A model generated the notes under the pieces. The model was not told the origin of the DNA. It did no database searches and saw only the letters and a list, made by a program, of their open reading frames with translations. A DNA stretch of 64,000 nt from a virus, in the IMG/VR virus record IMGVR_UViG_3300001765_000053; one strand, 5' to 3'. The translations under genes were made by a program, and so were the position numbers. Positions 43,263-64,000 of this stretch are shown in pieces; the stretch's first letter is position 1, and each line of letters starts with the position of its first letter.

Positions 43263-45182
43263 TTATAATAAACTATTTACTATAACTAATATAATTATAT
43301 ATGATAAACCAGATAAAAGTAATATTACAATACTTTTTCTAATTAGATTATTTCTTTTTGCTTTTACATTACTTCCTTTTGCAAATTTAATATTTCTAAA
43401 TCCATATGAAATTAAACCAATTGATGTTAGTGCAATAATAATATCTGAATTTTCAACATTAGTTTTTTCTTCTAAACTTTTAACTAAAGATAAATCTAAT
43501 TCTCCATTTGCATTATATAAACTAAATGCTTGTGATGTTGTAATTGTTATATTTCCTTCATTTACTTTATTTGATAAAGAACTACTACTTCCACCACCAC
43601 CCCCACCAGTTGGTTGAGTTATATTATATAAACAACTTCCATCATCTTCTGTTGCAGTTGAGTTATAATTATTTGCAGTTGAGTTCATACAACCAAGTAT
43701 TGGATTAATTATAATAGTTGTATCAACATTTCCATAAACATAAGCATTTAAATCATATTCTGAACTTTCTTGTGTCCAAGTAAGACCATCATCTGATATA
43801 AACACACCACCATCTATATAATAATTACCAACACTATTATATCCCCAAGCCCATTGTTGAATTGATGTTGAAGAAGTTAAAACAATTGCATAAGTTTGAT
43901 TTGCTATAACATTACAATTTTCATCTGTAACATTATAATTCCAATATACATCTTGTAATTCCCAACCAGTTAATGTTAATACACCTAAATCACATTTATA
44001 TGTTGATGGAATACCATTTACATCTGTATCATATAAAACACCAGTTAAAGTTGTTCCAAAATCATAAATTGGAACTCTAACTTCTGTTATATTTCCACTA
44101 AATTCTGATTTAAATGTTTGAGCCATAAATATTGAATTTGGATATGAGTTCCAATACCAATTTGTTATTGTATCAAATTGAAAAAATATATCAGTAAATG
44201 TTGTTGCGTGTGGAATAATAGAAGTGCTTGGTCCAATTACAGCATTAAAAAATTGTGAATTAAAAGATGTTCTATCTGTATTTAACATATCAAATCTAAC
44301 ATATTGATTTGCTTTTGGAACACTTTGTCCAAGTGCATAACATCCACCAAAATAACTACCTTGTTCATTTGCTTGAAAACTATGTGTTGAAATTGAATTA
44401 TTTAATTCATCAAATACTTCAAAATTAACTGATACTTGACCAGTATGTGCTTTACTTTCAATTCTAATTGATGGACAAATATGAGTATCTGTTCCATCAA
44501 AATTATTCCAGTAAATAATTTCTGGATATGGTGCATTATTTATTCCATCATCAGTAATAATATTATCAAAAGTTGCAAAAACACCAGCACCTTGAACATT
44601 TTGTGGTGTAATATCAATTTTTAATAAATCATTTGTATTTTGTTCAAATCCTTGCCAAGTTGTTATATAAGTTCCATCAATATAAAAATCTATACTTTTA
44701 TTAACATATCCAATATTTTTAAGTGAATATGTATGAAATTGATTATCAGATGGTATTGTAGAAAGAACAACATATCCACTTCTTTGTGAGTTCCAACCAA
44801 GAATACTACCACTATCAAAAATAAGACCAAATCCATAATTACCAGTTCCACGACCCATAATACTTAAAGATGCTGGAACATTTGAAAGTTTTAAATCAAA
44901 ATTAACTTCATTTGGACTTGGTGATTGAAAATCAACTCTTGCATTTGAAATTATATAACCCATCATCATTTCATCATATGTTCCTTGTGCTGTTAATTCA
45001 TTATTTGATATTAACCAACCATTTGGTTCATAATATGTCCAAACATTTCCATTTGTTGCTGTTCCAAGAGTTCCATCTGCTCTATTAAAATTATCTTCTG
45101 TAACTTGAATAGCAAAAACACTAAATATAGAACATAATAATACAATAATTGTTAATAATATTTTTTTCATTTTTATTCCCAC
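43263..45182 (-). CDS. Secreted, C-terminally anchored surface protein (concanavalin/LamG-like region plus GCxxxxAxNY repeat)
   Basis: Signal peptide MKKILL...SVFA; EDNFNRADGTLG; GCMNSTANNYNSTATEDDGSC; GGGGG linker; two C-terminal TMs. Confidence 0.75.
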   Translation of the reverse strand: MGIKMKKILLTIIVLLCSIFSVFAIQVTEDNFNRADGTLGTATNGNVWTYYEPNGWLISNNELTAQGTYDEMMMGYIISNARVDFQSPSPNEVNFDLKLSNVPASLSIMGRGTGNYGFGLIFDSGSILGWNSQRSGYVVLSTIPSDNQFHTYSLKNIGYVNKSIDFYIDGTYITTWQGFEQNTNDLLKIDITPQNVQGAGVFATFDNIITDDGINNAPYPEIIYWNNFDGTDTHICPSIRIESKAHTGQVSVNFEVFDELNNSISTHSFQANEQGSYFGGCYALGQSVPKANQYVRFDMLNTDRTSFNSQFFNAVIGPSTSIIPHATTFTDIFFQFDTITNWYWNSYPNSIFMAQTFKSEFSGNITEVRVPIYDFGTTLTGVLYDTDVNGIPSTYKCDLGVLTLTGWELQDVYWNYNVTDENCNVIANQTYAIVLTSSTSIQQWAWGYNSVGNYYIDGGVFISDDGLTWTQESSEYDLNAYVYGNVDTTIIINPILGCMNSTANNYNSTATEDDGSCLYNITQPTGGGGGGSSSSLSNKVNEGNITITTSQAFSLYNANGELDLSLVKSLEEKTNVENSDIIIALTSIGLISYGFRNIKFAKGSNVKAKRNNLIRKSIVILLLSGLSYIIILVIVNSLL

Positions 45183-45709
45183 CTATATTTTAATATTTTT
45201 CTTGGATAATTTGGATTTAATAAATATACTTTATTATCTTCAACATATCCCCTTGTATAATCTCCATTATCAAGAACTGCAATTGGTTTTAATTTCTTTT
45301 TTTCTCCAAATTCATCAAGTTGTTTATAAGTTCCAGCCATATAAACTCTTTCTTCTGTTCCAATCAATGGAAAATATTTGCCATATTCATTTTCAGTCAT
45401 TGATTTTTTATCTTCTTTTAATTTATGATTTTTTAAAAATTCATTATAACCCTTATCTGTTGAAAATGCTGTATGTGAAGTAGCATTTGTTGTTATTAAA
45501 TATTTATAATGTGTATCCTTTCTAAATTTCATACCTTTTTCTGTAAGTTTTTGAACAAAAAGATTTGAATTTCTTTCTACATTAATAATTTCTAATTTTC
45601 CATCATAATTAGCATAATGTATTCCTTTACTTATTGATGCTCTACCACTTTTTCTAAATACATTTCCCTTTGCATTTGGATTATACATAAATTTTTTTGA
45701 TTCCATTTT

Positions 45710-47224
45710 TTATAATAAACTATTTACTAATACTAATATAATTATATATGCAAGTGCAGATAATAAAACAATAATTAATGATTTTCTAATCATATTACTA
45801 TTTTTATTTCTTGATAATTTTACTTTTCTAAATCCATAAGATATTGAACCAAGAGATGTTAATATTACAATATAATCTGCATATTTAATTCCAGTCTTTT
45901 CTTCTAAACTTTTAATTAATGATAAATCAAGATTTCCATTTGCATCAAATAAACTAAATGCTTGTAAAAAAGTAGTTTTATTTATAGTTACATTTTCAGT
46001 AATATTAATATTACTTCCACGACCACCACCAATTGTTTTTTTATCATATAAAAATGGCAATGAATTAATTGTTCTTGTTTCATTATTTATAAGGTCTGTT
46101 GTAATTATTTGTATATAATAAGTTCCTTTACTTGGTTCTGATGTTAAATTAATTTCTTTTATTGCTATTGCCCAATTATCATCAAATGTTACATTTCTTG
46201 AATATGAATTAATTAATACATTTTGACTATTGTATAAATTATATTGCAAATTGAAATCTTGTTGAAAATCAAAGTGATATACATTTAATGTATTATCTGA
46301 ACTATAAACATAATTTGAACCAACTTTATTTATTTTAAATGTAAATGGAGAATTTGTTTTATAAGTTACATTATCATAAACAATTGGTGCTAAATCTAAT
46401 GAATTTCTATATATATTTGATGTTGTATTTAATTCATTTGTTCTTAAAGTTACACTATCAGTTTGTATTAAATTCATATAATACCAATTTGTTGATGGTT
46501 CTTGTAAGAAATAATATGTATCTTTTGTTCCATAAATAGTTAAATCTGTTCCAAGTTGTTCAATTGTAAAATTATCTGTAAATATATTTCCATAAACAGT
46601 CATTAATCTAAAATTTGTTGAAAAATTATTGAATACTAACATATTTTCAAATGCAAATGTATTTCCATCATTTAATGATACTGTGAATCCATTACCATCA
46701 AAATATACTTGTGAACTTACAATTGGATTTAAATTTGAATCTGCATCATAAAAATATGGTCTATTTAATTGATTTGATATTTCAAAACTTGTAACATTTG
46801 GTATAGACACATCTGTTGGTATAGAATTATATAAAACATTGAAATTTATTGAAATATTATAAATTCCACTTTCATTAAATGTAACATCATAAAATTGAAA
46901 TTGACCATTATATGAATTATCAACAATTGTTGGATATACTTGTATTCCATTTTTATAAAATGTTATATTGAAATAATATTCTGGAAAAGCACTTGCATCA
47001 CCCCAATCACTTAAATAATCATATTCAAAATGAAAAGAACCTTTATTTATATATAAGTATGAACCACCACCAGTCATTTCCATACAACTAAATCCACCAA
47101 TCAATGGACAAACATCATTTACCATTTGAGTTGTTAATGTTATGTCTTTTTGAAATTGGTCTGCTGAAAAAACAGACATAACACTCATTAAAACTATTCC
47201 TATTATCATTAATATTTTTTTCAT
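45710..47224 (-). CDS. Secreted, C-terminally anchored surface protein; shares its anchor with 43263..45182
   Basis: Signal peptide MKKILM...SVFSA; GGGRG linker; QAFSLFDANGNLDLSLIKSLEEKT plus two TMs. Confidence 0.75.
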   Translation of the reverse strand: MKKILMIIGIVLMSVMSVFSADQFQKDITLTTQMVNDVCPLIGGFSCMEMTGGGSYLYINKGSFHFEYDYLSDWGDASAFPEYYFNITFYKNGIQVYPTIVDNSYNGQFQFYDVTFNESGIYNISINFNVLYNSIPTDVSIPNVTSFEISNQLNRPYFYDADSNLNPIVSSQVYFDGNGFTVSLNDGNTFAFENMLVFNNFSTNFRLMTVYGNIFTDNFTIEQLGTDLTIYGTKDTYYFLQEPSTNWYYMNLIQTDSVTLRTNELNTTSNIYRNSLDLAPIVYDNVTYKTNSPFTFKINKVGSNYVYSSDNTLNVYHFDFQQDFNLQYNLYNSQNVLINSYSRNVTFDDNWAIAIKEINLTSEPSKGTYYIQIITTDLINNETRTINSLPFLYDKKTIGGGRGSNINITENVTINKTTFLQAFSLFDANGNLDLSLIKSLEEKTGIKYADYIVILTSLGSISYGFRKVKLSRNKNSNMIRKSLIIVLLSALAYIIILVLVNSLL

Positions 47225-47227: not shown

Positions 47228-47623
47228 TTAATATTCTGGATAAACATAAAAAGAATTTTCAAATTGATATCCGATTCGCTGTTGACCCCAATCTTTTTGT
47301 TTTTGTTTTATATATTTCTCTATTTTATATATATTAGTTTTATATTGTGTTTGTGTCATTGAACTTTCAACTAAAACACCTTCTTCATCAATCAATTTAT
47401 TATCATCTGATATATAACTACCAGTTTCTTTTACAGAAGTTGACCCCATAAATGTTTGAGATAAGAATTTTTTTGTGCCTTTTATTCTATTATTAAATTC
47501 AGTTTTAGAAATTTTTTTATCATATATTGTAGATGGAACTATTATCCCAAATTGATACTTTAATTCTGTTGATTCATTTTGCAAAGGTGCTTTCATTTTG
47601 AATTTAATTTTAGAGTTTGACAA
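47228..47623 (-). CDS. DUF3574-like protein
   Basis: FLSQTFMGST...GSY...IDEEGVLV...IKQKQKDWGQQRIG resembles the DUF3574 pattern. Confidence 0.5.
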   Translation of the reverse strand: MSNSKIKFKMKAPLQNESTELKYQFGIIVPSTIYDKKISKTEFNNRIKGTKKFLSQTFMGSTSVKETGSYISDDNKLIDEEGVLVESSMTQTQYKTNIYKIEKYIKQKQKDWGQQRIGYQFENSFYVYPEY

Positions 47624-47689: not shown

Positions 47690-47884
47690 TTAATCCATAA
47701 ACATCATTACAAATTTGTAACCAGCACTTAAACCAACTGCTGAATAAACAATTGTTTCAAGAATTGGCATACCACCAAAAATTGTTGTTACAATGTTTGC
47801 ATCAAAAAGACCAACAAGTCCCCAATTTAAACCACCAACAATTAGTAGTGCATCTGCTGTTTTATCTAAAATTTTATTTCCCAT
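47690..47884 (-). CDS. DUF378 small membrane protein
   Basis: LLIVGGLNWGLVGLFDANIVTTIFG...IVYSAVGLSAGY. Confidence 0.9.
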   Translation of the reverse strand: MGNKILDKTADALLIVGGLNWGLVGLFDANIVTTIFGGMPILETIVYSAVGLSAGYKFVMMFMD

Positions 47885-48862: not shown

Positions 48863-48952
48863 TTTTATTTTAATGTTTTTTGTATCAATATTAGCGAATC
48901 GCTTGAAATGTAATTAAACATATCTTAAATATCAATTACTACAACTAAATTA

Positions 48953-49078
48953 GTAGAACTTGCATTGAGATGTTATAATTAGTAAAATCCATATTCCCCA
49001 GCCCACACCATAAGGTAGAACTTGCACCTATGAAATTATAACTAACCTAACATAACTTTCCCAGCCCAACACTAATCA
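48953..49078. repeat. Two imperfect 62-63 bp tandem units
   Basis: GTAGAACTTGCA at 48953 and 49015; TTATAA at 48973 and 49036; CCCAGCCCA at 48997 and 49060. Confidence 0.7.
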
Positions 49079-49109
49079 AGTTATATTTAACAAAACTATA
49101 ACTTTCTTT

Positions 49110-49528
49110 CTTTATAAAGATAATTATGATTTTTGAAATAGGCTATGGTTAAAAATCAAAAAAATCAGATAAGGTATGGTTAAAAATCAAATTTTTCGAA
49201 TGTCTTATGGTTAAAAATCAAATTTTTCTATGTGAATTTTTAGGCACATCTTATTTTTTCAATTTTTAACCCTACCTTATACGAAAAATCGAATGAGACT
49301 GCCACCCCAATACGAAAAATCGAATAAGGCTACCCCAAAAATCGAAAATTTCGAATGTCCTATGGTTAAAAATCGAATTTTTTTTGTTTTTGGGGTAGCC
49401 TTATTCGAAATTTCTATGTGAATTTTGAGTCACATCTTATTTTTTTTATTTTTAACCATATCATATTTCATTTTTTTAATTTTTTACTATGTCTTATACG
49501 AAAATCCTTAATTACCTTTATAAAGATA
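49110..49528. repeat. Iteron-like direct and inverted repeat block (candidate origin, terminus or packaging site)
   Basis: TATGGTTAAAAATC at 49144, 49175, 49206, 49361; inverted copy ATTTTTAACCATA near 49448; 22-bp perfect inverted repeat 49320-49341/49387-49408; flanked by CTTTATAAAGATA at 49110 and 49516. Confidence 0.85.
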
Positions 49529-49584
49529 AAATGTTAGTTTTTTAGTAACTATATAAATAAATATAGTATTTTGCACATAAAAAA

Positions 49585-50346
49585 ATGGGATATGAAGATT
49601 ATGAAAGACATTCGCCAGATGGTGGCATTTGGACAAGAGTAACAAATGCAGTTTCTGGTGGTGGTATATTTAGAACTCTATTAAGATTTGTTGCTTTAGT
49701 AGGTGCTTTAATTATACTTGGTCTTAATAAAGTTCAATGTTCATTAAATTATGTTGGAAATAACAATCTAACTGGTTGGGAAAATTTTATACTATTTTAT
49801 GATGCAATAGTATATGGATATCAAAGAGCATCAATTTTATTGTGGTCTCAACTTGGAAATTTAAATTCTGATGCGTTGTCTAATTGGGGAGATATAACAA
49901 TAGTTCTTGTTTTTGTTTTCTTTGTGTTCATAGCACTTTACTCACTTGTAAGTATAATAGCAGATTTGATTGATGGAAGTCCAACAGATACTGCACCAAC
50001 TTATTTAAAAGTAATAATTACTATTGGTTTGTTGTTAATATTTAGTTCAGTTTCATATTATACAGCAGAAAAACCAGAAGGAGAATATTTTATTAATACT
50101 AATATAATATTAACTCAACAAGAAAGTCAAATTTGTAAACAATCTGGTGAACTTGGATATTTCACTTCTGTTAGTGCAATCAATGATACAATAATAAAAC
50201 AACCTATTAAAATAAATAATACAATAAATAATACAATGCAAAATACTATAATAGGTAATTCAAATACAACAATATATAATAATACAATCAATCAATCAAA
50301 AGAACAAGATAAATCAGTTCAATTAATAAATATGTTAAACAATTAA
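49585..50346 (+). CDS. Multi-TM membrane protein with N-glycosylation-sequon-rich tail
   Basis: Three hydrophobic segments; NDT, NNT, NNT, NTT, NNT and NQS in the C-terminal part. Confidence 0.65.
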   Translation: MGYEDYERHSPDGGIWTRVTNAVSGGGIFRTLLRFVALVGALIILGLNKVQCSLNYVGNNNLTGWENFILFYDAIVYGYQRASILLWSQLGNLNSDALSNWGDITIVLVFVFFVFIALYSLVSIIADLIDGSPTDTAPTYLKVIITIGLLLIFSSVSYYTAEKPEGEYFINTNIILTQQESQICKQSGELGYFTSVSAINDTIIKQPIKINNTINNTMQNTIIGNSNTTIYNNTINQSKEQDKSVQLINMLNN

Positions 50347-50348: not shown

Positions 50349-52391
50349 ATGGGAAAAAAGAAAAGTAAATTATGGTATATAGGAAGTGCTTTATTGGTAT
50401 TTCTTGTATTGGGAATAACATTTTCATTATATAATGGAAATTATGGGGGTGAAAATGCAGAATTGTCTAAAGTTGAAGGTAGTTTTTCAATTGAAACTTT
50501 AAAAGATGATTTTAGTAGTATTATACCATTTAAAACAGATTCAAATAGTCAATCATTTGTGTTTGTAGAAGGAACTAAAAGTGCTTATACTATGTTTAAT
50601 TATAAGTATTTAAGTGGTGGAACTACTGTATTTACACATAAGGCTGGTCAAGTGCAATATATTGGAAGTGCTTGTAAAGTTGGAGATGTTGTAAGAGTTT
50701 TATATTGTGATAATAATCTTAATACAATGTCTTGTAGCAAAGAAATGTTTGTAGATATGTTTTATATTTCAAAAACTGGTGATTATGTAACTATTGGAAA
50801 AGATACTTATAACTTCAATGATAGTTTTTATTTCACTTATAATTGTTATGAATATAAAACATCAACAACTCCAATTTATGAAGAAAGAAGTGTATATGTT
50901 TCAAAAACAAATACTTGTATTACTCCAAAAGAAGCAACTGGTATGACTGGTATTTTTCCATATACAAGTGAAAAAGATTGTTTTACAAAAGTTGGAACAA
51001 TTACAACTCCAATACAATCACCAACAACACCAACAACACAAACATTATCTGGTGTAACAAATCCATATCCAAATAATCAAGTTATTGGTGATAAAGGATA
51101 TTTTAAAGATGTTGTAATTAAACCATCTACTGCTTCAACTTATGATAGTGTAGTTGTTACTGGAAAATTTATTGTTGTTGGAAATCATAGTAAAATATTA
51201 CTTGAAACAACAATTGACCCAGATACAAGAAATATATTTGGTGGTCAATCACAATCTATCGTAACTTCATCTGCAAGTTATAGTGCTTGTGATAAAAGTA
51301 GATATTATGTTGGAAAAACACATTATAATCTTAAAGATGGAGATATAATTGAATTTACATATACACTTGCTACTCCACAAAAATCTGGTGAATATAAATT
51401 GAATTTAATATCTACAAAGGGTTGTTATAATGATGTAAATTATGATGATAAAGCATCAAGTGTAAATTTTTTAATTAACATAAAAGATAAAGTATTTGTA
51501 ACAAAAGATGATACTGATGGAGATGGTAAAAAAGATTTAGATAGTAATAAACAACAACTTGATAATTGTAGATATATAAGCAATCCAGCACAAGAAGATT
51601 ATGATAATGATAATATTGGAGATTCTTGTGATTATTGCCCAATGAATAAAGGATTATCAATTGAAAGTGGTATTGTTGAAAAAAATGGTTGTCACCCTTG
51701 TGAAGGAAAAGCACTAACAGATAGTTGTTGGAAAAAAGATTATAGTGAGTTTGAAATTGGAGACCCAAGATATGATGCAGTTGTAAAATCTGGTGAAGGA
51801 GAACTTACAAATGAAGATTTATTTGCAAAATATCTTGAAGAATTAAAACTTAAAGCAGAATCAGACAGAATAAAACAAGAAGAACAAAGATGTCAATTGA
51901 AGGGTGGTGAGTTTATAAATAATAAATGTGAAATTACAACTACTATGACTTGTGATGAAGCATTAAAAACAAATACTTATAGCACAATAAATGAATTTTG
52001 TTCAGAAACTGAAACACAAACTTGGTGGAATAGTCAATATTGTATTAAAAATCCAAGTGTAATGGAATGTAATCCAAACTATTGTGATGAAAATAAAGAA
52101 CTTGATATTTGTGGTGGAAGTTCAGATGTTTGTTCAATCAATCCAACATCAAGTGTTTGTGGTGGAAGTGGTGCAAGTGAAGAACCAACAACTTTAAGTT
52201 GTAATTCTGGTGAATATAAAACTTTAACTTGTAGTAATGATGAACAAATTATTTCACAAGTTTGTGATACAACAAGTGGAAACTTTATTACAATAGCAAC
52301 TTGTGAAAGTGAGCAATCTTGGTTATCAAAATATGGTAGTTATTTAACTGTTGGTGTTTTGGTTGGAATTGTAGGGGTATTATTTATTTAA
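50349..52391 (+). CDS. Cys-rich membrane-anchored surface protein with thrombospondin type-3-like Ca-binding repeats
   Basis: N-terminal TM; DTDGDG...DNCRYISNPAQEDYDNDNIGDSCDYCP; C-terminal TM. Confidence 0.75.
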   Translation: MGKKKSKLWYIGSALLVFLVLGITFSLYNGNYGGENAELSKVEGSFSIETLKDDFSSIIPFKTDSNSQSFVFVEGTKSAYTMFNYKYLSGGTTVFTHKAGQVQYIGSACKVGDVVRVLYCDNNLNTMSCSKEMFVDMFYISKTGDYVTIGKDTYNFNDSFYFTYNCYEYKTSTTPIYEERSVYVSKTNTCITPKEATGMTGIFPYTSEKDCFTKVGTITTPIQSPTTPTTQTLSGVTNPYPNNQVIGDKGYFKDVVIKPSTASTYDSVVVTGKFIVVGNHSKILLETTIDPDTRNIFGGQSQSIVTSSASYSACDKSRYYVGKTHYNLKDGDIIEFTYTLATPQKSGEYKLNLISTKGCYNDVNYDDKASSVNFLINIKDKVFVTKDDTDGDGKKDLDSNKQQLDNCRYISNPAQEDYDNDNIGDSCDYCPMNKGLSIESGIVEKNGCHPCEGKALTDSCWKKDYSEFEIGDPRYDAVVKSGEGELTNEDLFAKYLEELKLKAESDRIKQEEQRCQLKGGEFINNKCEITTTMTCDEALKTNTYSTINEFCSETETQTWWNSQYCIKNPSVMECNPNYCDENKELDICGGSSDVCSINPTSSVCGGSGASEEPTTLSCNSGEYKTLTCSNDEQIISQVCDTTSGNFITIATCESEQSWLSKYGSYLTVGVLVGIVGVLFI

Positions 52392-52398: not shown

Positions 52399-53847
52399 AT
52401 GAAAAGTGAAAAAAAATTAAATTTGTTGTATTTTATTGGTGCATTATTAATGCTTACAATAATTGGACTTGGTTATTCATTATTAAATAATCAATCATTT
52501 TCATTAATTAGTGTATCACAAGCACAATATGGAGAAGATGGTGTTCCAAAATGGGTAATATTTGCAACAGCAGATAAAGTTGGAGATGGAACAACTTATG
52601 TATTTACACAAAATGCAAAAGATTTACCAAATGCACAAACAAGTGATGGTGGAACTATTGTTCCACAAAAAGATATAAAGATAACAGTTGTTCAAAAAGA
52701 ATCAAGTTGTAAATATGGTCTAACTAATAAAGATGGTTGGTTGGGTTATGATTGGGGAGACAATGATATGACAATTGATGCAATAGTAACAAGACAATCA
52801 TTATTGAGTATATCTGATGGAATAACTACAAAAGAAATAAGTGCATTTGAAGATGGAGAAAGTGGTGTTGAATATAGTATTGAAAATATAGATTATAATA
52901 ATAACAATGGAATATTAAAAATAAAACCAGTTGGTGGATTTATTACAAGCACAGACTGTCCAAGTTTAAGTTCTTATAGAATTGAATATAATGACATAGA
53001 AAATGAATTAAATTTTTATCAAGGTGGAAAATTTAGTAGTAATGTAAATGATGCTATTGGTATGGTTTGTAAAATAAATATATTAAATGATGGAACAAAA
53101 AATATTGGAACAAAAAATGAAATGATTTGTAAAATAAATAATAAAAATATTGTAATTCCATCATTTACGATTACAGCAGATGCAAAATATTTAAATTTTA
53201 AATATATTCCAAAAACAGTTGGTATTCCAAAAATAGTTGAAATTATAAAACCAGTTTCAAGTGTTGGTGAAAATGGTCAAGAAGGAATTAGTTTAAGAAT
53301 TAAAAATATTGGTGAAAATAGTGGAACATTTGTAATTGTCCCAAAATCACAAGCATTTTCGTTTTTCCCAACATCAATAACAGAAGTTTTTGCAAAAGGT
53401 GAAGAAAGAGAAGTTTCATTTAGATTATACTCTCCAAATGTAAACCAAAATTTTGATTTTGATGGAAATTTTAAAGTTTGTAGTGTAAATGAAGTTGGTG
53501 CAAGTCAATGTGTAAATGAAGATTTTACAATGACAGTAAAGGATTTAAGTGTTATTGATAAAATAATACCAAAGGATAAAATTTGTGGTAATAATTTTTG
53601 TGATGCAAATGAAAATTATTTAACTTGTTCAGTTGATTGTAAAGAACCAGTTGTTTGTGATGGATTAAATATGCAACAATACAATAATAAATGTGTTTGT
53701 GAAGAAGGGTTTACAATGACTACTGATGATTATGGTAGAGATTATTGTTCAGAAGATAAATCAAATACAATATTATTAATTGGTATTATTTCACTTATAC
53801 TTGCAGTAGTGATAATTATGATTGTAATAGCAAAAAGAAGAAAATGA
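52399..53847 (+). CDS. Type I membrane surface protein (Ig/CARDB-like, Cys-rich and EGF-like)
   Basis: LRIKNIGENSGTF; ICGNNFCDANENYLTCSVDC; CVCEEGF; C-terminal TM plus AKRRK. Confidence 0.7.
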   Translation: MKSEKKLNLLYFIGALLMLTIIGLGYSLLNNQSFSLISVSQAQYGEDGVPKWVIFATADKVGDGTTYVFTQNAKDLPNAQTSDGGTIVPQKDIKITVVQKESSCKYGLTNKDGWLGYDWGDNDMTIDAIVTRQSLLSISDGITTKEISAFEDGESGVEYSIENIDYNNNNGILKIKPVGGFITSTDCPSLSSYRIEYNDIENELNFYQGGKFSSNVNDAIGMVCKINILNDGTKNIGTKNEMICKINNKNIVIPSFTITADAKYLNFKYIPKTVGIPKIVEIIKPVSSVGENGQEGISLRIKNIGENSGTFVIVPKSQAFSFFPTSITEVFAKGEEREVSFRLYSPNVNQNFDFDGNFKVCSVNEVGASQCVNEDFTMTVKDLSVIDKIIPKDKICGNNFCDANENYLTCSVDCKEPVVCDGLNMQQYNNKCVCEEGFTMTTDDYGRDYCSEDKSNTILLIGIISLILAVVIIMIVIAKRRK

Positions 53848-54164: not shown

Positions 54165-54168
54165 AAAA

Positions 54169-54240
54169 ATGGAAAACAAAAATAAAAAACAAGACAACAA
54201 TAAAAATAAAAAACAAGATAACAATAAAAAGAAAAAATAA
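54169..54240 (+). CDS. Possible 23-aa basic peptide built from a 24-bp tandem repeat
   Basis: MENKNKKQDNNKNKKQDNNKKKK*; normal AAAAATG start and TAA-AAAATG junction. Confidence 0.4.
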   Translation: MENKNKKQDNNKNKKQDNNKKKK

Positions 54241-54243
54241 AAA

Positions 54244-54778: not shown

Positions 54779-55306
54779 ATGGAAAATAAAAAAGCAAATG
54801 GATTTGTAACAGTTATATTAACATTAATAATTATAATTGCATTAACATTTGTTTTTTTATTATATTTTGATATTGATACATCAGATATTCAAAGTAAAGT
54901 TTATGGTAAACCATCTTATAGTTTTAATAAAGAATCATCAATATTCCTTACTAAAACAATTGTAAATAAATTAAACTATGCTTATGCTCAACTATCAGAC
55001 AATTCAATATTATGTTTATATGGAATTGCAAAATCAAATGGTGATTTATTAATAAATGATGTTAAAGAACCATCATCTGGAAATGTATGTTTTAAAGATG
55101 AAACTTATTTAGGTAAGTTATATATAACAAAAAATAACCAAGTTCAAGTATATGATATAAATTGTGCAATTGATAGTGAATTATATAATGAACTTTCAAT
55201 AAATGAAACAAAATTATCAACAATAATGTGTAAAGAAAACTGGTTTGGTTTCTTTACCAATAATAGTATTTATAGAAGTTATGATTATCAAATAATAAAT
55301 GAATAA
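54779..55306 (+). CDS. Membrane-anchored protein, possibly a degenerate JAB/MPN-like fold
   Basis: N-terminal TM; ILCLYG...LINDVKEP..C pattern; no catalytic HxH. Confidence 0.3.
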   Translation: MENKKANGFVTVILTLIIIIALTFVFLLYFDIDTSDIQSKVYGKPSYSFNKESSIFLTKTIVNKLNYAYAQLSDNSILCLYGIAKSNGDLLINDVKEPSSGNVCFKDETYLGKLYITKNNQVQVYDINCAIDSELYNELSINETKLSTIMCKENWFGFFTNNSIYRSYDYQIINE

Positions 55307-59760: not shown

Positions 59761-62700
59761 ATGGAAAAAATGAAATCGTTAAAATCAATAATAATTGGAC
59801 TTGTAATGTTGTTATTTGTTATGAGTAGTGTAAACTCTGCTTCTTTTTGGGATTTGGGTTGCTGGTTTAATCAAAATCCAAATATGGAAGTAGATTTATT
59901 GATTTATAATGAAAGTGGAAGTTTTAAATCATCAGTAACACAAGGAAATGGAAATGAAATTGATACATTATCAATAATAGAAGGAGATATAATTCAAATA
60001 GATTTCTCTCCAACAAGTGATGATGAAAATAATATTAGACAAGAAAGAGTATTTTTTTTACACGATACTAAAAGTGATTGGACTATTGATATTCAAGATA
60101 ATAATAATGTTCAAACTTTATTATCAACAACTTCATCAAGTTCAAATAAATTTGATTTTTATGAATATTTAAATACTGGAATATCTAAACCACAATATTT
60201 TAGTGAACATACACAAACATTAACTATTAATGGTAATCCACAAAATGATTTAATTAAAACATTTAAACCACAAATTGGAAATTATGAAGTATTATTTAGA
60301 GTTACAGATGATTGTTCAAATGATGCAACTGATGAAGTGTATAAATTTTTTGATTTAGTTGTTGAACCAAAACCATCAACAAGTCAAACTGTTTATGTTT
60401 GTAATTCAACATCAACTGTATCAGTTGCAAATCCAGTTGCTACAACTTGGATTGATATTTATATTGATAATGGTTGTGGAAATGCTTTAGATTTTAGTAG
60501 TGTAACTAATAGTGGTTTTTTAAATATAAATTTAAGAACTCACGAAAATAATACACTTGTAGAATTTCCAGCATTTAATTGTGGATATCAACATAATATT
60601 GGAAATAGTGTGATTAATTATATTCCAAATTTAAGAATTTATGGTAATGACTTTTATAATATTCATCAATGTGTTCAAACATTTAGTTACTTTACTGGTG
60701 CAACTGGAAATGAAAATATAACAATTGATTATAATTCTGGTAATCAATATTCAGAAAGTTTTGGACTTGGATATTTTGGAAATTTCAATAAAGTTAAATT
60801 GATAAGTTCATATGGTGAAGGTGGTATGGGATATTTAAGAATTAATGGATATATTGGTAATGTAAAAGATTTGAGTTTAAATATTACTGGTAGTGGTTAT
60901 ATGGATACTCCATACACATATGATGGAAATGTAAATATTACCTATGATAATTCAGTTCAAAATTATATATCATTTAGAAATTCATATAATAATGTTTATT
61001 CTGGATTTAATCAAGGTATAAATTTTAATATATATGGAGATTATCACAATAATAATCTTTATTATGGTTATAATAGTAATGGTTTTGATAATATTGATTT
61101 AACAAATAATGGAAATGTTTATTTAAATAGTATTTTAATTGGCGATAATTATGTTGGAAATGCGAATCCAGTTATATTACAAAAAAGGTGGGGAGAACCA
61201 TCAATTAAAATGTATGCAAATGTTTTACAATATAAAAATTCAAATGCTTTTTCAATTCAAGATTGGGATAGTGGAAGTTATAATTATACAATTAGTAAAG
61301 AAATTTCAACTGGAAATTTCTTAGGAAATGCTTGGCTTAATGAAAATGGAACTGATATATTTAATTGTAATGTTGCTTTAAAAAATATTACATTTGAAAA
61401 TAAAGTTTATACAACTTGTTCTTCTCCAATTATGATTGCAGAAGATACTTCAAATGGAGTAAAAAGAATTTATGATTATATAATTGTTACAAATCAATCA
61501 AAAGGTGGTTATAATCCATCAGTTCCAGAACAAATTATAATTCCAAATAATAAACCAGTTGCTAACATAAAATTAAATTCAACACAAGAAGTTGAAGTTG
61601 GTCAAACTGTTTGTTGGGATACAAGTGATAGTTTTGATACAGATGGTTCAATTGTTTCAAAAAAAATTTGGGAAGGAGATAAATATTATTCAAATCTTGA
61701 TAGTAATTGTTTGACAAAAACATCACCAGATGTTGTTTCAGTAAAAGTTGAAGTTACTGATAATGATGGTGCAAAAGATGATGATATAGTTTATATTAAA
61801 TGGTCAAAAACACAAGCAATTTGTCAAGATAATACACCATCAGATTTAGTTATAACAAATACTCAATATCAAAATAATATGTATTGGTTAAATATGACTG
61901 TTAGTGATTTTGATGGAGATACAGATTTTACATATGCTTGGACTGTAAATGGAGAAACTGTTTATGGAAAAGATATATTAACATCAATTGATTATAACCA
62001 AAATATTTATGGTAGTGTATTTGATGGTTGTAATATTACATCTGATATGATGTATATTGATGTTGGTCAAAATTATTCAGAACCAATTAATAGTATTGAT
62101 ATAAATCTTGTTTGTAGTCAAAATAATATTTATTCACCATCAACAGTAAGTTGCGAGTTGATTAAAGATTTAAAAAATCAACACCAAAACACAATTATTT
62201 GGTTATATGATACTACAATAATAAATGAAAATCAAAATGCTTCAATATTTTCAAGAAGTGTTGGTGATATTAATGACCATTTAATTACTGTAAGTGTTTC
62301 AACAATTGAAGGAGAATATAAGACAGATTATTATAGATTTAATCTTGTTCCACAACCAATTACTCCACCAGTTAGTGGTGGGGGTGGTGGCTCTACTCCA
62401 ATTACTAAAACAACTTGTAATATTAATATAACACCAATTGTTATTTCAATAAGCGATAATAATTTGACAATACCATTAACAATTAAAAACAATGAACAAG
62501 GTTCTTGGCAACCAGATTATATATTTGAAGATGTTGTTGGTTTTGATAGTGTTAAAGATGATTTATCTTTGGCAAATACTATTGGAACAATTGAAGCAAC
62601 ACAAACAAAAGTTATTGGTGTTAAATATAATAAAGATTTATTTGATACAAATCCAATAACAGCAAAAAATAAAATAAGATTTACAAGTGATAATTGTGAA

Positions 62701-63039
62701 GATGTAATATTAATAATAAATACAAATATAAATAATCAAGAAACAATACTTGCTTTTAGTGAACTTGATTTGCTTTCAAGTTTAAAACCAGAAAACTTTA
62801 TAGAACTTACAGCAATTAAAAAAGAATTAATAGTTGATAATAAAGAGTTACAAGATTTAAAAGTTTGGCATATTGGAGTAATAGTATTATTAATATTTAT
62901 TACTATGCTTTGGAATGTTAGATATGTAGATAGTGATTTTGGTAATATAGTGTCAAAATCATTAATAATAATATTATTAACATCAATAATAACAACAATA
63001 ATAATATATGGACTTAATTATCTTTTTAAGATATTATAA
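59761..63039 (+). CDS. Large PKD-domain surface protein with two-TM anchor
   Basis: NKPVANI...VEVGQTVCWDTSDSFDTDGSIVS...VEVTDNDGA; SGGGGG linker; C-terminal TMs. Confidence 0.85.
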   Translation: MEKMKSLKSIIIGLVMLLFVMSSVNSASFWDLGCWFNQNPNMEVDLLIYNESGSFKSSVTQGNGNEIDTLSIIEGDIIQIDFSPTSDDENNIRQERVFFLHDTKSDWTIDIQDNNNVQTLLSTTSSSSNKFDFYEYLNTGISKPQYFSEHTQTLTINGNPQNDLIKTFKPQIGNYEVLFRVTDDCSNDATDEVYKFFDLVVEPKPSTSQTVYVCNSTSTVSVANPVATTWIDIYIDNGCGNALDFSSVTNSGFLNINLRTHENNTLVEFPAFNCGYQHNIGNSVINYIPNLRIYGNDFYNIHQCVQTFSYFTGATGNENITIDYNSGNQYSESFGLGYFGNFNKVKLISSYGEGGMGYLRINGYIGNVKDLSLNITGSGYMDTPYTYDGNVNITYDNSVQNYISFRNSYNNVYSGFNQGINFNIYGDYHNNNLYYGYNSNGFDNIDLTNNGNVYLNSILIGDNYVGNANPVILQKRWGEPSIKMYANVLQYKNSNAFSIQDWDSGSYNYTISKEISTGNFLGNAWLNENGTDIFNCNVALKNITFENKVYTTCSSPIMIAEDTSNGVKRIYDYIIVTNQSKGGYNPSVPEQIIIPNNKPVANIKLNSTQEVEVGQTVCWDTSDSFDTDGSIVSKKIWEGDKYYSNLDSNCLTKTSPDVVSVKVEVTDNDGAKDDDIVYIKWSKTQAICQDNTPSDLVITNTQYQNNMYWLNMTVSDFDGDTDFTYAWTVNGETVYGKDILTSIDYNQNIYGSVFDGCNITSDMMYIDVGQNYSEPINSIDINLVCSQNNIYSPSTVSCELIKDLKNQHQNTIIWLYDTTIINENQNASIFSRSVGDINDHLITVSVSTIEGEYKTDYYRFNLVPQPITPPVSGGGGGSTPITKTTCNINITPIVISISDNNLTIPLTIKNNEQGSWQPDYIFEDVVGFDSVKDDLSLANTIGTIEATQTKVIGVKYNKDLFDTNPITAKNKIRFTSDNCEDVILIINTNINNQETILAFSELDLLSSLKPENFIELTAIKKELIVDNKELQDLKVWHIGVIVLLIFITMLWNVRYVDSDFGNIVSKSLIIILLTSIITTIIIYGLNYLFKIL

Positions 63040-63044
63040 ATAAA

Positions 63045-64000
63045 ATGGATGAACAAAAAAATTCAACAGTAAAGAAATTTGTAGTAATTGTATTTATACT
63101 TTTACTATTAATAGGTATGTTTGCTGGTATTTATGCTTATACACCAGAATATACCAGTTATTTAAATCAATTTCCAGTTCAAGTAATGCCAAAGGTTAAT
63201 GGAAACTTAAAACCAAATACTGAATTTGATTATAATTTTGTATTTGCAACAGATGAAAATTGTGTGTATGATGTATATACAAAAGCAGTAACTATTACAA
63301 CAGATAAATATGGTGTTGGTTCAACAATATTAAATTTATCAAGTGTAACACAAATTCCAAAATATTTATGTGAATATAGAGATGGTAGTCTTCGTAAAGT
63401 TCATCCATTGAATGAAAGATTATTTTTAAAACAGATTAATGACCAAGACATATTAAATTATGGTTTTATTAAAAATTATACTGATACTTCATTAAATGAA
63501 TCACAAGTTGATAATTTTGTTTCAAATAATGGATATTTAACAAATGAAACTGACCCAACAATAGATTTACAAAAATTACAAAATTTAACATTTAATGATT
63601 TTCATAATCTTGGTGGAATTGATAGAGTATTAAATGAAAGTGAAATTCAAATGATGGGATTTCTACAAAATGAAACAGATTATTGTAAAGATGGTATTTG
63701 TAATGGAGATTTAACAATTAATGGAGATTTAACAGTAATTGGTAGTCTTGCAAATTTAAGTGTTACAAATGTAAATACAAATGGTTCAATAATTCCTTCA
63801 TTTAATAATATGTTTAATCTTGGTGATGTTGGTTTTAAATGGAATACAATTTATGCAAGTGTTATTGATGCAAATATTGATTACTCAAAAATTCAAAATG
63901 TTCCAAACTTTTTATTGACTGAAACAGACCCAGAAGTTGGAACATTAATAAATGGTCAATGGTGTAGGGTAACTGGTAGTCAAGTTGTTTGTGATGTTGC
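63045..64000 (+). CDS. Partial fibre-like protein (not in track; runs off window end)
   Basis: Manual translation open for 318 codons: N-terminal TM; GYLTNETDP, NETDY and TETDP repeats; NGDLTINGDLTV; VGTLINGQWC. Confidence 0.75.
   Translation, partial: MDEQKNSTVKKFVVIVFILLLLIGMFAGIYAYTPEYTSYLNQFPVQVMPKVNGNLKPNTEFDYNFVFATDENCVYDVYTKAVTITTDKYGVGSTILNLSSVTQIPKYLCEYRDGSLRKVHPLNERLFLKQINDQDILNYGFIKNYTDTSLNESQVDNFVSNNGYLTNETDPTIDLQKLQNLTFNDFHNLGGIDRVLNESEIQMMGFLQNETDYCKDGICNGDLTINGDLTVIGSLANLSVTNVNTNGSIIPSFNNMFNLGDVGFKWNTIYASVIDANIDYSKIQNVPNFLLTETDPEVGTLINGQWCRVTGSQVVCDV

What the first reader, a model, noticed from the sequence alone, without database searches (positions are those of the whole stretch)
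43263..64000. Large archaeal element with an extensive membrane/surface gene set but no head-tail hallmarks here
Seen: about 20 kb of signal-peptide or TM-anchored proteins and a TM-anchored fibre-like protein, but no recognisable terminase, portal, HK97 capsid or tape measure. Inference: an enveloped or pleomorphic large dsDNA virus, or a vesicle-borne element, of DPANN-like archaea, possibly an undescribed lineage.
Basis: inference. Interest (0 to 1): 0.7.

Follow-up and report, generated by a model that had tools for sequence, protein, structure and literature searches.

The report
Membrane-fusion gene module of archaeal virus-like element
The 20-kb block of membrane-anchored proteins is real and contains an anchored relative of the protein fold that fuses eukaryotic gametes and enveloped-virus membranes. 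The element therefore probably spreads by membrane fusion, and it shows a large, apparently undescribed branch of these fusogens on virus-like DNA of probably DPANN archaea.

Summary
Observation confirmed. In 43263-64000, 12 of 17 ORFs (90% of residues) carry signal or TM segments, against 9 of 99 ORFs (8%) in the rest of the window. No terminase, portal, HK97 capsid or tape-measure match appears in about 110 ORFs.

The new key fact is that ORF 52399-53847 (482 aa) is a class II fusogen (fusexin). It has an N-terminal signal/anchor, an all-beta ectodomain, a Cys-rich stem, one C-terminal TM and a KRRK tail.
- AlphaFold model pLDDT 85; Foldseek's top PDB hits are all class II fusogens (Fsx1 E 2.5e-12, HAP2, alphavirus E1, bunyavirus Gc, EFF-1).
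- The family profile hits HAP2 sequences (E 2e-4).
- The domain II tip is aromatic-rich.
- A homotrimer model passes its controls.

The family is large (451 clusters at 50% identity). It is distinct from published Fsx1 and sits in conserved synteny with anchored adhesin- and fibre-like proteins. Two complete 35-41-kb IMG/VR genomes carry it without detectable head-tail genes.

Host evidence points to DPANN archaea but is indirect. The other 53 kb of the 117-kb contig could not be read, so off-window capsid genes are not excluded. The scan has noted other fusexin relatives on other DNA, though not this family.

The parts
43263..45182 (-). 639-aa surface protein with a signal peptide, a beta-rich/lectin-like passenger, a Gly/Ser linker and a C-terminal two-TM hairpin anchor
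   Evidence: Translation; TM census; weak Sial-lect-inser hit (E 0.007); anchor related to the other three hairpin anchors (z 37, 6.7 and 2.8) and alignment A11
45173..45706 (-). 177-aa soluble protein of unknown function inside the minus-strand operon
   Evidence: no TM and no family hit
45710..47224 (-). 504-aa surface protein with a signal peptide, a passenger, a Gly linker and a two-TM hairpin anchor paralogous to that of 43263-45182
   Evidence: tail score z 37
47228..47623 (-). 131-aa soluble protein of unknown function
47690..47884 (-). 64-aa small protein; its homologue in L003 carries a weak DUF378 (small membrane protein) hit, and related ORFs occur in G001 and L051
47963..48862 (-). 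299-aa N-terminally anchored beta-rich protein. It is among the best-conserved genes of the module and a candidate major envelope/structural protein (inference)
   Evidence: 58% identity to L003; 17 relatives at 38-70% identity; weak profile link to the roughly 300-aa N-anchored proteins of G001/G002 (hhalign E 4e-4, probability 35%); no informative fold lead
48863..49584 (.). Divergent intergenic region between the two membrane-protein operons; presumed promoter/control region. It was not analysed here.
49585..50346 (+). 253-aa polytopic membrane protein (about 3 TM), the first gene of the fusogen operon
   Evidence: 53% identity and the same position in L003, also in L040. No detectable homology to the 6-TM protein at the same position in G001/G002
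50349..52391 (+). 680-aa type-I-like protein with an N-terminal anchor, thrombospondin-type-3-like Ca-binding repeats, a Cys-rich region and a C-terminal TM
   Evidence: NCBIfam MtsC/TSP3-type repeat (E 3e-6); faint TSP_3 in the L003 homologue; TM census
52399..53847 (+). 482-aa class II fusion protein (fusexin). It has an N-terminal signal/anchor, three beta domains, an aromatic hairpin tip (about residues 109-124), a Cys-rich EGF-like stem, one C-terminal TM and a KRRK tail
53844..54164 (+). 106-aa three-TM protein directly after the fusogen, with start and stop overlapping; conserved in L003 and L040
54244..54609 (+). 121-aa soluble protein with paralogues elsewhere in relative L003
   Evidence: 72% and 46% identity to two L003 ORFs
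54613..54777 (+). 54-aa two-TM miniprotein
54779..55306 (+). 175-aa N-anchored protein, conserved in L003 and L040
55309..55797 (+). 162-aa protein with a signal-peptide-like N-terminus by eye, which did not reach my hydropathy cut-off in the census; conserved in L003 and L040
55801..59757 (+). 1318-aa adhesin-like protein with a signal peptide, three blocks of GLUG repeats and a two-TM hairpin anchor
   Evidence: Pfam Glug (E 1.8e-31); 46% identity to the L003 1667-aa protein; anchor
59761..63039 (+). 1092-aa surface protein with a signal peptide, a large unassigned beta-rich passenger, a Gly linker and a two-TM hairpin anchor
   Evidence: no Pfam, PHROG or PDB sequence hit
63045..64000 (+). 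N-terminal 318 aa of a membrane-anchored fibre, cut off by the window end. The full-length homologue is 1168 aa with tail-fibre-type 'GYLT-ETDP' repeats
   Evidence: 67% identity; phrog_9729, E 1e-75, in the L040 homologue; tail-fibre PHROGs in the G002 870-aa homologue

Best explanation
The block 43263-64000, which continues past the window end, is the membrane-protein (envelope) module of a large virus-like dsDNA mobile element.

Its core is a genuine, membrane-anchored class II fusion protein (fusexin, 52399-53847). This gene sits in a conserved operon with small polytopic membrane proteins and a Ca-repeat protein. Around it lie exported adhesin- or receptor-binding-type proteins: a GLUG-repeat protein, a lectin-like protein, and a tail-fibre-like protein anchored by a TM helix. 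Four of these proteins use one element-specific two-TM hairpin anchor.

Proposed mechanism:
1. The proteins are inserted by the Sec route into the host cytoplasmic membrane (inferred from the signal peptides).
2. The element's DNA leaves in a membrane-bounded particle, either an enveloped virion or a vesicle, that carries these proteins (inferred).
3. The fibres and adhesins bind a recipient cell (inferred).
4. The fusexin inserts its aromatic domain II tip, trimerises and folds back. This merges the particle membrane with the recipient membrane and delivers the DNA (inferred from the fold, anchor, loop composition and trimer model).

The host is most likely a DPANN archaeon of the Woesearchaeota/Nanoarchaeota type (indirect evidence).

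What is shown: the membrane-protein enrichment, the fusogen fold and topology, the size of the family, the synteny, and the lack of detectable head-tail genes in the window and in two complete relatives. What is not shown: particles, fusion activity and the host.
For: Fusogen, fold level:
- A first AlphaFold2 model from a 5-sequence alignment had pLDDT 70; a second model from a 131-sequence alignment reached pLDDT 85.4.
- The ESM Atlas shape search puts a HAP2 (PF10699) cluster first, aligned on residues 23-267, i.e. outside the domain III region 276-385.
- The BFVD top 50 are named class II-type envelope glycoproteins/polyproteins of RNA viruses or unnamed entries; no virus of bacteria or archaea appears.

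Fusogen, sequence level:
- NCBIfam Fsx1 hits at E 6.8e-5.
- The family profile A3 hits Arabidopsis HAP2 (E 2.3e-4) and entry 5OW4 (E 2.3e-3) as the two best PDB sequences. Identifying 5OW4 as Trypanosoma HAP2 rests on my own knowledge.

Fusogen, topology:
- All 131 family members have an N-terminal hydrophobic segment and 130 of 131 have a C-terminal TM.
- The loop between the two long strands 93-110 and 123-139 is 23% aromatic, against 10% for the ectodomain. It holds two or more aromatic residues in 128 of 131 members.
- A homotrimer model of residues 38-370 scores ipSAE 0.71 against a best control of 0.00. The mark was reached by 20 of 30 proteins solved as pairs of one chain and by 1 of 23 solved as single chains. 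The runs agree in at least 64% of contacts, and partner pLDDT is at least 64. Class II trimers have been solved, so this pass may partly reflect likeness to them.

Family and synteny:
- 451 clusters at E<=1e-3 and 115 at E<=1e-30 among 1.84 billion representatives.
- Relatives L003 and L040 keep the whole gene order.
- G001, G002 and other contigs keep the order polytopic protein, large anchored protein, fusogen.

Non-head-tail evidence:
- The window shows no such hits.
- G001 (40,777 bp, 109-bp terminal repeat) and G002 (34,656 bp, 127-bp repeat), both rated 100% complete by CheckV, show no Terminase_6N, Terminase_6C, Phage_capsid or Phage_portal hits. Pfam tallied 22 families and PHROGs listed its first 25 of 63; none is a capsid, portal or terminase family.
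- The two-TM hairpin anchor was not found in 231 DPANN genomes, so it looks element-specific.

Host evidence:
- The fusogen's stem plus anchor matches cellular proteins in 22 of 401 genomes of the phylum of a Woesearchaeota MAG at E<=1e-12. It matches 0 of 401 Patescibacteria.
- Pattern hits in species genomes are mostly Woesearchaeota or Altiarchaeum MAGs.
- A PTH2 peptidyl-tRNA hydrolase is present. That this is the archaeal/eukaryotic type rests on my own knowledge.
- A distant element sharing the 299-aa protein encodes an intein-containing MCM.

Precedent:
- Fsx1 lies in archaeal mobile elements (PMC9259645).
- A 2026 meeting report says that vesicles carry an Fsx1 element which is transmitted by fusion (PMC13712861).
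Against: - Only 64 of 116.9 kb could be read, so capsid, portal and terminase genes may lie off-window.
- The replication genes are of the kind common in tailed phages: a DUF3987-type primase-helicase whose nearest Atlas clusters are Uroviricota, a gp44-like clamp loader, AAA_24, HNH, Mom, LPD29 and DUF2958.
- To my knowledge, 117 kb is far larger than any known pleomorphic or vesicle-type archaeal virus.
- HMM-level absence of capsid genes is weak evidence for very divergent archaeal viruses, and no fold screen of the other ORFs was possible.
- No full-length fusogen of this family was found in 401 DPANN genomes and no CRISPR spacer match was found, so the host is not tied down.
- Wall-less bacteria were not tested as hosts.
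- Fusion activity is not shown. Other windows of this scan found fusexin-fold proteins that are probably not fusogens, but those lacked anchors.
Confidence: 0.6

Rival explanations
1. The element is a head-tail (Caudoviricetes-type) large virus whose capsid, portal and terminase genes lie in the unread 53 kb. The membrane block would then be an accessory cassette displayed on the infected cell. It could serve superinfection exclusion or host-surface remodelling. It could also drive fusion of infected cells with neighbours, for example a DPANN cell with its host, so the virus spreads cell to cell.
For: The replication genes are phage-like: Atlas neighbours of the 734-aa helicase are 74-100% viral, commonest phylum Uroviricota, and there is a gp44-type clamp loader plus AAA_24, HNH, Mom, LPD29 and DUF2958. 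The contig is 116,929 bp, a size typical of large tailed viruses. The anchored fibre matches PHROG tail-fibre families. The window shows dense short ORFs, as in phage early regions.
Against: In close relatives the membrane module exceeds 30 kb, which is very large for an accessory cassette. The same fusogen with the same local synteny sits in two complete 35-41-kb genomes with no detectable head-tail genes. The fibre is TM-anchored rather than attached to a tail. No structural hit appears in 64 kb of window, 35 kb of L003's contig or 23 kb of L040.
Confidence: 0.22
2. The element is a capsid-less plasmid-like or integrative element that makes no particles. The fusexin and adhesins would sit on the host cell surface and fuse donor and recipient cells, giving a conjugation-like, fusion-dependent transfer as first proposed for Fsx1 elements.
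For: Moi et al. proposed exactly this for Fsx1 elements (PMC9259645, section 10). G001 and G002 carry serine recombinases/integrases and many methylases, and their terminal repeats with a gene spanning the ends suggest circular molecules. Cell-surface display follows from the same signal and anchor features.
Against: No VirB4, TraG or HerA-type genes were hit in the window or in G001/G002. IMG/VR and CheckV class G001 and G002 as complete viral genomes. The 2026 meeting report describes the Fsx1 element as vesicle-borne, i.e. virus-like (PMC13712861). This rival differs from the best explanation only in whether a particle exists, which sequence cannot decide.
Confidence: 0.13
3. The block is a chromosomal surface-protein island of a small-genome archaeon or bacterium, not part of a mobile element.
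For: DPANN genomes encode many large anchored surface proteins, and the fusogen's stem and anchor resemble cellular DPANN proteins.
Against: The 64 kb holds no rRNA, tRNA or other Rfam family and no housekeeping family apart from a PTH2. The neighbours are about 95 short ORFs with phage-type families. No full-length family member was found in 401 DPANN or 401 Patescibacteria genomes. Relatives lie on terminally repeated 35-41-kb IMG/VR genomes.
Confidence: 0.03
4. The element has the same function, but its host is a wall-less or ultra-small bacterium (Mollicutes-like or CPR) rather than a DPANN archaeon.
For: The GC content is 23-24%, a wall-less host would suit fusion entry, and one stem-motif hit lies in a Parcubacteria MAG. 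To my knowledge, GLUG repeats and several phage-type families are more common in bacteria.
Against: The stem plus anchor matched 0 of 401 Patescibacteria against 22 of 401 genomes of the Woesearchaeota phylum. TGA is used as a stop in 19 genes, so the code is not code 4. A PTH2 is present, and a distant element sharing the 299-aa protein has MCM. To my knowledge, published prokaryotic anchored fusexins are archaeal (PMC9259645). Mollicutes were not tested.
Confidence: 0.15

Closest known systems
Archaeal Fusexin1 (Fsx1; PDB 7P4L; NCBIfam NF053506) and its mobile elements (Moi et al. 2022, PMC9259645; meeting report PMC13712861)
   Same: It has the class II fusogen fold and is the best Foldseek and VIA-align hit. 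Like Fsx1, it is membrane-anchored, prokaryotic and carried by a mobile element rather than a core genome. The proposed role in DNA transfer by membrane fusion is also the same.
   Different: It scores only 21 bits against the Fsx1 model, whose cut-off is 650, and the family profile does not hit the 7P4L sequence at E<=10. It has one C-terminal TM rather than three. The model has almost no helices, so it lacks the six-helix bundle. A Cys-rich EGF-like stem stands where Fsx1 has domain IV. The family's stem motifs are absent from the 96 published Fsx1 sequences. The genomic context also differs: phage-type replication genes and a membrane module of more than 30 kb, instead of XerC/D, HerA, VirB4 and TraG.
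Eukaryotic HAP2/GCS1 gamete fusogen (Pfam PF10699; PDB 5OW3, 5MF1, 7S0K)
   Different: There is no Pfam HAP2-GCS1 hit at E<=0.01. Identity is 10-14%. The protein is much shorter, the context is prokaryotic and polycistronic, and the cytoplasmic tail is only KRRK.
Viral class II fusion proteins (alphavirus E1, bunyavirus Gc, flavivirus E)
   Same: The fold and type-I topology match. The named entries among the BFVD top 50 are such envelope glycoproteins/polyproteins, and many PDB hits are too.
   Different: Those are proteins of RNA viruses of eukaryotes and are usually cut from polyproteins with a companion protein. Here the gene is free-standing on a dsDNA element of a prokaryote, and no companion is recognised.
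Membrane-bounded archaeal and bacterial elements without icosahedral capsids: pleolipoviruses, the plasmid-vesicle element pR1SE, and Acholeplasma phage L2 (from my own knowledge, not tested here)
   Same: The concept is shared: the DNA travels in a host-derived membrane studded with element-encoded anchored proteins and enters by fusion.
   Different: No sequence relationship was detected to anything in PHROGs or in GenBank phage and virus records. Those genomes are about 7-50 kb, against at least 117 kb here, and their fusogens are not class II.

Membership tests
Fusexin superfamily (class II fusogen fold) | Three beta-rich ectodomain domains (I, II, III) with class II topology | tested here: met
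Fusexin superfamily (class II fusogen fold) | Type-I membrane topology: an N-terminal signal and a C-terminal TM after a stem | tested here: met
   Family-wide, 131 of 131 members have an N-terminal hydrophobic segment and 130 of 131 a C-terminal TM.
Fusexin superfamily (class II fusogen fold) | Hydrophobic/aromatic fusion loop at the tip of domain II | tested here: inconclusive
   The tip of the long hairpin (residues 109-124, 'GWLGYDWG') is 23% aromatic, against 10% for the ectodomain, and 128 of 131 members have two or more aromatic residues there. That this hairpin is the domain II tip is read from the strand pattern, not from a residue-level superposition.
Fusexin superfamily (class II fusogen fold) | Homotrimer in the post-fusion state | tested here: inconclusive
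   The three-copy model scores ipSAE 0.71 against a best control of 0.00. The mark was reached by 20 of 30 proteins solved as pairs and by 1 of 23 solved as single chains. Contact agreement is at least 64% and pLDDT at least 64. This is a prediction only, and solved class II trimers may be remembered by the model.
Fusexin superfamily (class II fusogen fold) | Demonstrated membrane-fusion activity | not testable with these tools
   This needs a cell-cell or liposome fusion assay.
Fsx1 (NCBIfam NF053506, equivalog) | Score above the curated cut-off (650 bits) | tested here: not met
   21.4 bits, E 6.8e-5, over the domain III region only.
Fsx1 (NCBIfam NF053506, equivalog) | Three C-terminal TM helices, a helical insertion in domain II (six-helix bundle) and a globular domain IV (PMC9259645) | tested here: not met
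   There is one C-terminal TM. The ectodomain model has only two short helices, 216-220 and 385-389. Residues 396-452 form a Cys-rich EGF-like stem whose best weak PDB sequence hit is an EGF-type micronemal protein.
HAP2/GCS1 (Pfam PF10699) | Match to the Pfam model at the gathering score | tested here: not met
   There is no Pfam hit at E<=0.01. Only the 131-sequence profile reaches HAP2 chains, at E 2.3e-4.
Caudoviricetes (head-tail viruses) | HK97-fold major capsid protein, portal and large terminase | tested here: inconclusive
   Pfam and PHROGs found none in the window, in L040's extension or in the complete relatives G001 and G002. However, 53 kb of this contig is unread, and divergent capsids can escape HMMs.
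Pleolipoviridae-type pleomorphic viruses | Small genome (about 7-17 kb, from my own knowledge) with the conserved VP3/VP4 core genes | tested here: not met
   The contig is 116,929 bp. No PHROG or GenBank-virus match was found for the module proteins. The resemblance is in lifestyle only.

The most novel reading that the evidence does not exclude
This element and its relatives are a lineage of enveloped, capsid-poor dsDNA viruses of DPANN archaea, with genomes from 35 kb to over 100 kb. They would enter cells with a class II fusion protein aided by membrane-anchored tail-fibre-like receptor binders. That would make them the natural 'enveloped archaeal virus with a fusexin' postulated by the virus-first scenario for the origin of HAP2 and eukaryotic gamete fusion. 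The roughly 450-cluster family would be a second, undescribed prokaryotic fusexin branch.
Probability: 0.35. Interest if true: 0.9.

Novelty: new variant of a known kind. Interest (0 to 1): 0.78.

Why it matters
Class II fusogens link enveloped viruses, somatic cell fusion and eukaryotic sex. Where they came from is an open question.

So far the only described prokaryotic anchored fusexin is Fsx1, known mainly from haloarchaeal integrated elements. Here a second family appears. It is large (at least 451 clusters at 50% identity) and has a simpler, HAP2-like single-anchor architecture. It sits on virus-like genomes, two of them complete, together with a whole set of anchored adhesins and a TM-anchored tail-fibre.

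If these are enveloped archaeal viruses, three things follow:
- The 'virus-first' origin of HAP2 becomes directly testable with natural sequences.
- The size range of membrane-bounded archaeal viruses expands.
- Fusion-based gene transfer in DPANN archaea, whose cell biology is built on cell-cell contact, gains a handle for study.

Even if capsid genes turn up off-window, a tailed virus carrying a 30-kb fusogen and adhesin cassette would be unusual.

Tried and rejected
Reaching the rest of the contig:
- Exact-protein look-ups for three window proteins found nothing on record, and no whole genome is held. The other 53 kb stayed unread.
- The search for homologous proteins on the 734-aa helicase timed out.

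Host by DNA:
- A 20-kb DNA search against 401 DPANN-phylum genomes gave many hits. They come from an A-rich low-complexity spacer (54135-54244), the TSP3 repeats and the stem motif.
- The one 30-nt, 97% match (G094) lies in an AT-rich intergenic stretch with no CRISPR repeats.
- That search flagged genomes G368, G404 and G341 as unpublished. No claim here rests on them.

Start-codon context:
- Shine-Dalgarno and start-context statistics separate this clade from everything else sampled, but they do not decide the host domain.

Overlap with published Fsx1:
- A 74-aa N-terminal fragment of one published metagenomic Fsx1, taken from the paper's supplement, showed no similarity to the family profile. 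This is a low-power test and is inconclusive.
- Six stem motifs that occur in 50 of 131 family members are absent from the paper's supplementary sequences.

Other module proteins:
- PDB sequence searches with the 1092-, 639- and 1318-aa proteins found nothing.
- The Atlas search with the 299-aa protein gave only weak beta-sandwich neighbours.
- Profile-profile comparison of the first operon gene with the 6-TM protein of G001/G002 was negative. The comparison for the roughly 300-aa protein was only suggestive.

Wider searches:
- tblastn of the fusogen and the helicase against 50,697 GenBank phage and virus records gave no match.
- IMG/VR contigs L001 and L002 share only a 28-30% identical clamp loader and carry no fusogen in the parts held.
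- The 79-kb ENA contig that shares the 299-aa protein has no fusogen of this family in the 36 kb I read.
- The first 'control' phylum search (of G009) turned out to be the same phylum as G005, so it is not an independent control.

Full report
**1. What the window is**

The 64-kb window has 23-24% G+C, about 115 tightly packed ORFs and no tRNA. It has no Rfam family at all. Stops are TAA 88, TGA 19 and TAG 7, so the standard prokaryotic code applies. Many genes are separated by 0-3 bases, which means polycistronic, prokaryote-type expression.

Outside the finding, Pfam and PHROGs find replication and anti-restriction genes of the kind common in phages:
- a UvrD helicase (1649-3493)
- a gp44-like clamp loader (16070-16999)
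- AAA_24 (22032-22769)
- HNH (25555-26529)
- DUF7168/DUF2786 (8585-9421)

The 734-aa protein at 18451-20655 is a DUF3987-type primase-helicase. Its nearest Atlas clusters are viral, mostly Uroviricota. It is not an MCM.

A protein-cluster record gives the longest contig carrying the window's own fusogen as 116,929 bp. The contig itself could not be fetched.

**2.

In 43263-64000, 12 of 17 ORFs (90% of the residues) carry a signal/anchor and/or C-terminal TM segments. In the rest of the window, 9 of 99 ORFs do (8% of the residues).

Two divergent operons start from the 48863-49584 spacer.

Four large proteins (639, 504, 1318 and 1092 aa) share one architecture: a signal peptide, a variable passenger, a Gly-rich linker and a two-TM hairpin anchor. 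Their C-terminal tails are related, with five of the six pairwise tail scores at z 4.9-37 and one at 2.8 (alignment A11). This anchor was not found in 231 genomes of the DPANN phylum searched, so it looks specific to the element.

The 1318-aa protein has GLUG repeats (E 1.8e-31).

The last, truncated ORF is the TM-anchored start of a fibre. It is 67% identical to the N-terminus of a 1168-aa protein in a relative. The rest of that protein matches PHROG tail-fibre families (phrog_9729, E 1e-75).

No terminase, portal, HK97 capsid or tape-measure family was hit anywhere in the window.

**3. The decisive new fact: a class II fusogen**

ORF 52399-53847 (482 aa) gave a weak NCBIfam hit to fusexin 1 (E 6.8e-5). 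I followed it up.

It has close homologues. An exhaustive profile search found 451 clusters at E<=1e-3 and 115 at E<=1e-30, mostly full-length proteins of 450-570 aa.

Fold evidence:
- A first AlphaFold2 model from five sequences had pLDDT 70. A model from 131 sequences reached pLDDT 85.4.
They are Fsx1 7P4L (E 2.5e-12), Arabidopsis HAP2 (1.6e-11), Cyanidioschyzon HAP2 (1.9e-10), Chlamydomonas HAP2, alphavirus E1, bunyavirus Gc and EFF-1.
- The ESM Atlas shape search independently puts a HAP2 (PF10699) cluster first, aligned on residues 23-267.
- In BFVD, the top 50 are named class II-type envelope glycoproteins/polyproteins of RNA viruses or unnamed entries; no virus of bacteria or archaea appears.

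Sequence evidence: the 131-sequence profile has Arabidopsis HAP2 (E 2.3e-4) and PDB entry 5OW4 (E 2.3e-3) as its two best PDB hits. To my knowledge 5OW4 is Trypanosoma HAP2.

Topology evidence:
- All 131 members have an N-terminal hydrophobic segment, and 130 have a C-terminal TM.
- The tip between the two long strands 93-110 and 123-139 ('GWLGYDWG' here) is 23% aromatic, against 10% for the ectodomain. It holds two or more aromatic residues in 128 of 131 members.

Trimer evidence: a three-copy model of residues 38-370 scored ipSAE 0.71 against a best control of 0.00. The mark was reached by 20 of 30 proteins solved as pairs of one chain and by 1 of 23 solved as single chains. The runs agree in at least 64% of contacts, and partner pLDDT is at least 64. 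The interface runs through residues 125-133, 178-193 and 216-222. Class II trimers have been solved, so part of this pass may be memory of the fold.

I conclude that this is a bona fide anchored fusexin. Its activity remains to be shown.

**4. Same superfamily, different family**

It fails the Fsx1 model by a wide margin (21 bits against 650). The family profile does not reach the 7P4L sequence. It has one TM instead of three and almost no helices, hence no six-helix bundle. A Cys-rich EGF-like stem stands in place of domain IV. It gets no Pfam HAP2 hit.

Six stem motifs present in 50 of the 131 members are absent from the supplementary sequence tables of the Fsx1 paper. I found no paper in the held library that describes a second prokaryotic fusexin family.

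Other windows of this scan have noted fusexin relatives, mostly anchorless bacterial HAP2-like proteins and two archaeal cases. A search of earlier findings by this protein's sequence found nothing outside this window.

**5. Genomic company**

Two partial contigs keep the window's whole gene order at 31-72% protein identity:
- L003/L068, a JGI contig of 34.8 kb with 24% G+C
- L038/L040, a Logan contig of 23 kb with 27% G+C

The shared order is: the 299-aa anchored protein; the divergent spacer; the polytopic protein; the TSP3-repeat protein; the fusogen; the 3-TM protein; small proteins; the GLUG protein; the roughly 1000-aa protein; the fibre.

L040 continues for 9.6 kb more with signal/TM proteins only, so the module exceeds 30 kb. 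L068 shows the same replication genes on the other side, with nothing structural in between.

A second, more distant group has 27-36% G+C. It keeps the order polytopic protein, large anchored protein, fusogen. This group includes two IMG/VR genomes with direct terminal repeats that CheckV rates 100% complete: G001 (40,777 bp) and G002 (34,656 bp). In G001 a gene spans the ends, which suggests a circle.

These two genomes carry serine recombinases, several DNA methylases, a helicase and a fibre with a tail-collar domain. They show no Terminase_6N, Terminase_6C, Phage_capsid or Phage_portal match, and no capsid, portal or terminase family among the Pfam and PHROG families listed (all 22 Pfam families; the first 25 of 63 PHROG families).

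The fusogen and the helicase have no tblastn match in 50,697 GenBank phage and virus records.

**6. Host**

The evidence is indirect but consistent.
- The fusogen's stem plus anchor matches cellular proteins in 22 of 401 genomes of the phylum of a Woesearchaeota MAG at E<=1e-12. It matches none of 401 Patescibacteria.
- Motif hits in species genomes are mostly Woesearchaeota and Altiarchaeum MAGs.
- The window encodes a PTH2, which to my knowledge is the archaeal/eukaryotic type of this enzyme.
- A distant element sharing the 299-aa protein (38% identity) encodes an intein-containing MCM, a CPBP/Rce1 protease and giant anchored proteins.

On the other side, no full-length fusogen was found in the 401 DPANN genomes and no spacer match was found. 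Wall-less bacteria were not tested. I put the DPANN or other archaeal host at roughly 0.6-0.7.

**7. Mechanism and rivals**

The most economical reading is an envelope module. Sec-inserted anchored proteins decorate a host-derived membrane that carries the DNA, as an enveloped virion or a vesicle. Fibres and adhesins bind the recipient, and the fusexin merges the membranes.

There is precedent. Fsx1 lies in archaeal mobile elements (PMC9259645). A 2026 meeting report states that vesicles from an Fsx1-carrying strain carry the element and transmit it by fusion, 'a dsDNA archaeal virus' (PMC13712861).

The main rival is a tailed virus whose structural genes lie in the unread 53 kb, with this block as a cell-surface cassette. 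The phage-like replication genes and the 117-kb size speak for it. The size and conservation of the module, the TM-anchored fibre and the capsid-less complete relatives speak against it.

A particle-free, cell-fusion plasmid cannot be separated from the best reading by sequence. A chromosomal island is unlikely.

**8. Verdict**

The finding is a new variant of a known kind: a fusexin-bearing archaeal mobile element, with a distinct large fusogen family and an unusually large membrane module on virus-like genomes.

Noticed in passing
window, all genes (e.g. 54241-54246): Almost no Shine-Dalgarno motifs: 9 of 116 genes, against a background of 4%. In contrast, 'AAA' sits directly before the start codon in 72% of genes, often as TAA-AAA-ATG after the previous stop. 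Close relatives L003 (65%) and L040 (71%) share this. G001, G002 (15-36%) and the sampled DPANN and CPR loci (0-13%) do not.
   Followed up: partly
window 54135-54244: An A-rich low-complexity spacer between two genes gives spurious 70-80% DNA matches in many of the 217 (of 401) DPANN-phylum genomes that had any match. This is a trap for DNA-level host assignment.
   Followed up: yes
By ESM Atlas features and structure it groups with DUF3987-type primase-helicases of Uroviricota, not with MCM.
   Followed up: partly
window 3495-3824 (-): A 109-aa ORF next to the UvrD helicase has a PTH2-like motif pattern. It is probably the member behind the single Pfam PTH2 hit (E 3e-7), though that hit was not assigned to an ORF. 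To my knowledge this is the archaeal/eukaryotic type of the enzyme and an unusual cargo for a virus-like element.
   Followed up: partly
However, a clear Rce1/CPBP gene sits right after the 299-aa-protein homologue in the distant 79-kb element (L070 11050-11751).
   Followed up: partly
L072 57-3215; L073 10001-19865 (ENA contig k141_1075014, 79 kb, 35% GC): A distant element shares only the 299-aa anchored protein. It encodes an MCM helicase interrupted by an intein, RusA, an RNA ligase, a transglutaminase-core protein and two giant DUF285 proteins (1926 and 1359 aa) with an N-terminal signal and a C-terminal TM.
   Followed up: partly
G001 (L013-L015) 33050-34480; G002 (L016) 6069-7508: Each complete relative has a second protein of about 476 aa with N- and C-terminal TM segments, the same size and topology as the fusogen, which the fusogen profile does not match. 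It could be a very divergent paralogue or a companion protein.
   Followed up: no
G001 ends (L015/L013): An ORF runs off the right end (38461-40776) and another runs in from the left end (1-2088) across the 109-bp terminal repeat. The 'DTR' therefore probably marks a circular or circularly permuted genome with one protein of about 1400 aa spanning the junction.
   Followed up: no
L006 / G009: A MAG titled 'uncultured Methanosarcinales archaeon' (about 1.0 Mb) draws the same phylum genome set as the Woesearchaeota MAG G005. It is probably a DPANN genome carrying a misleading title.
   Followed up: no
L001, L002 (IMG/VR, 24% GC): Two IMG/VR fragments have the same extreme G+C and no Shine-Dalgarno motifs. 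CheckV rates them only 18% and 7% complete, which implies very large genomes. They carry clamp-loader paralogues 28-30% identical to the window's, and no fusogen in the parts held.
   Followed up: partly
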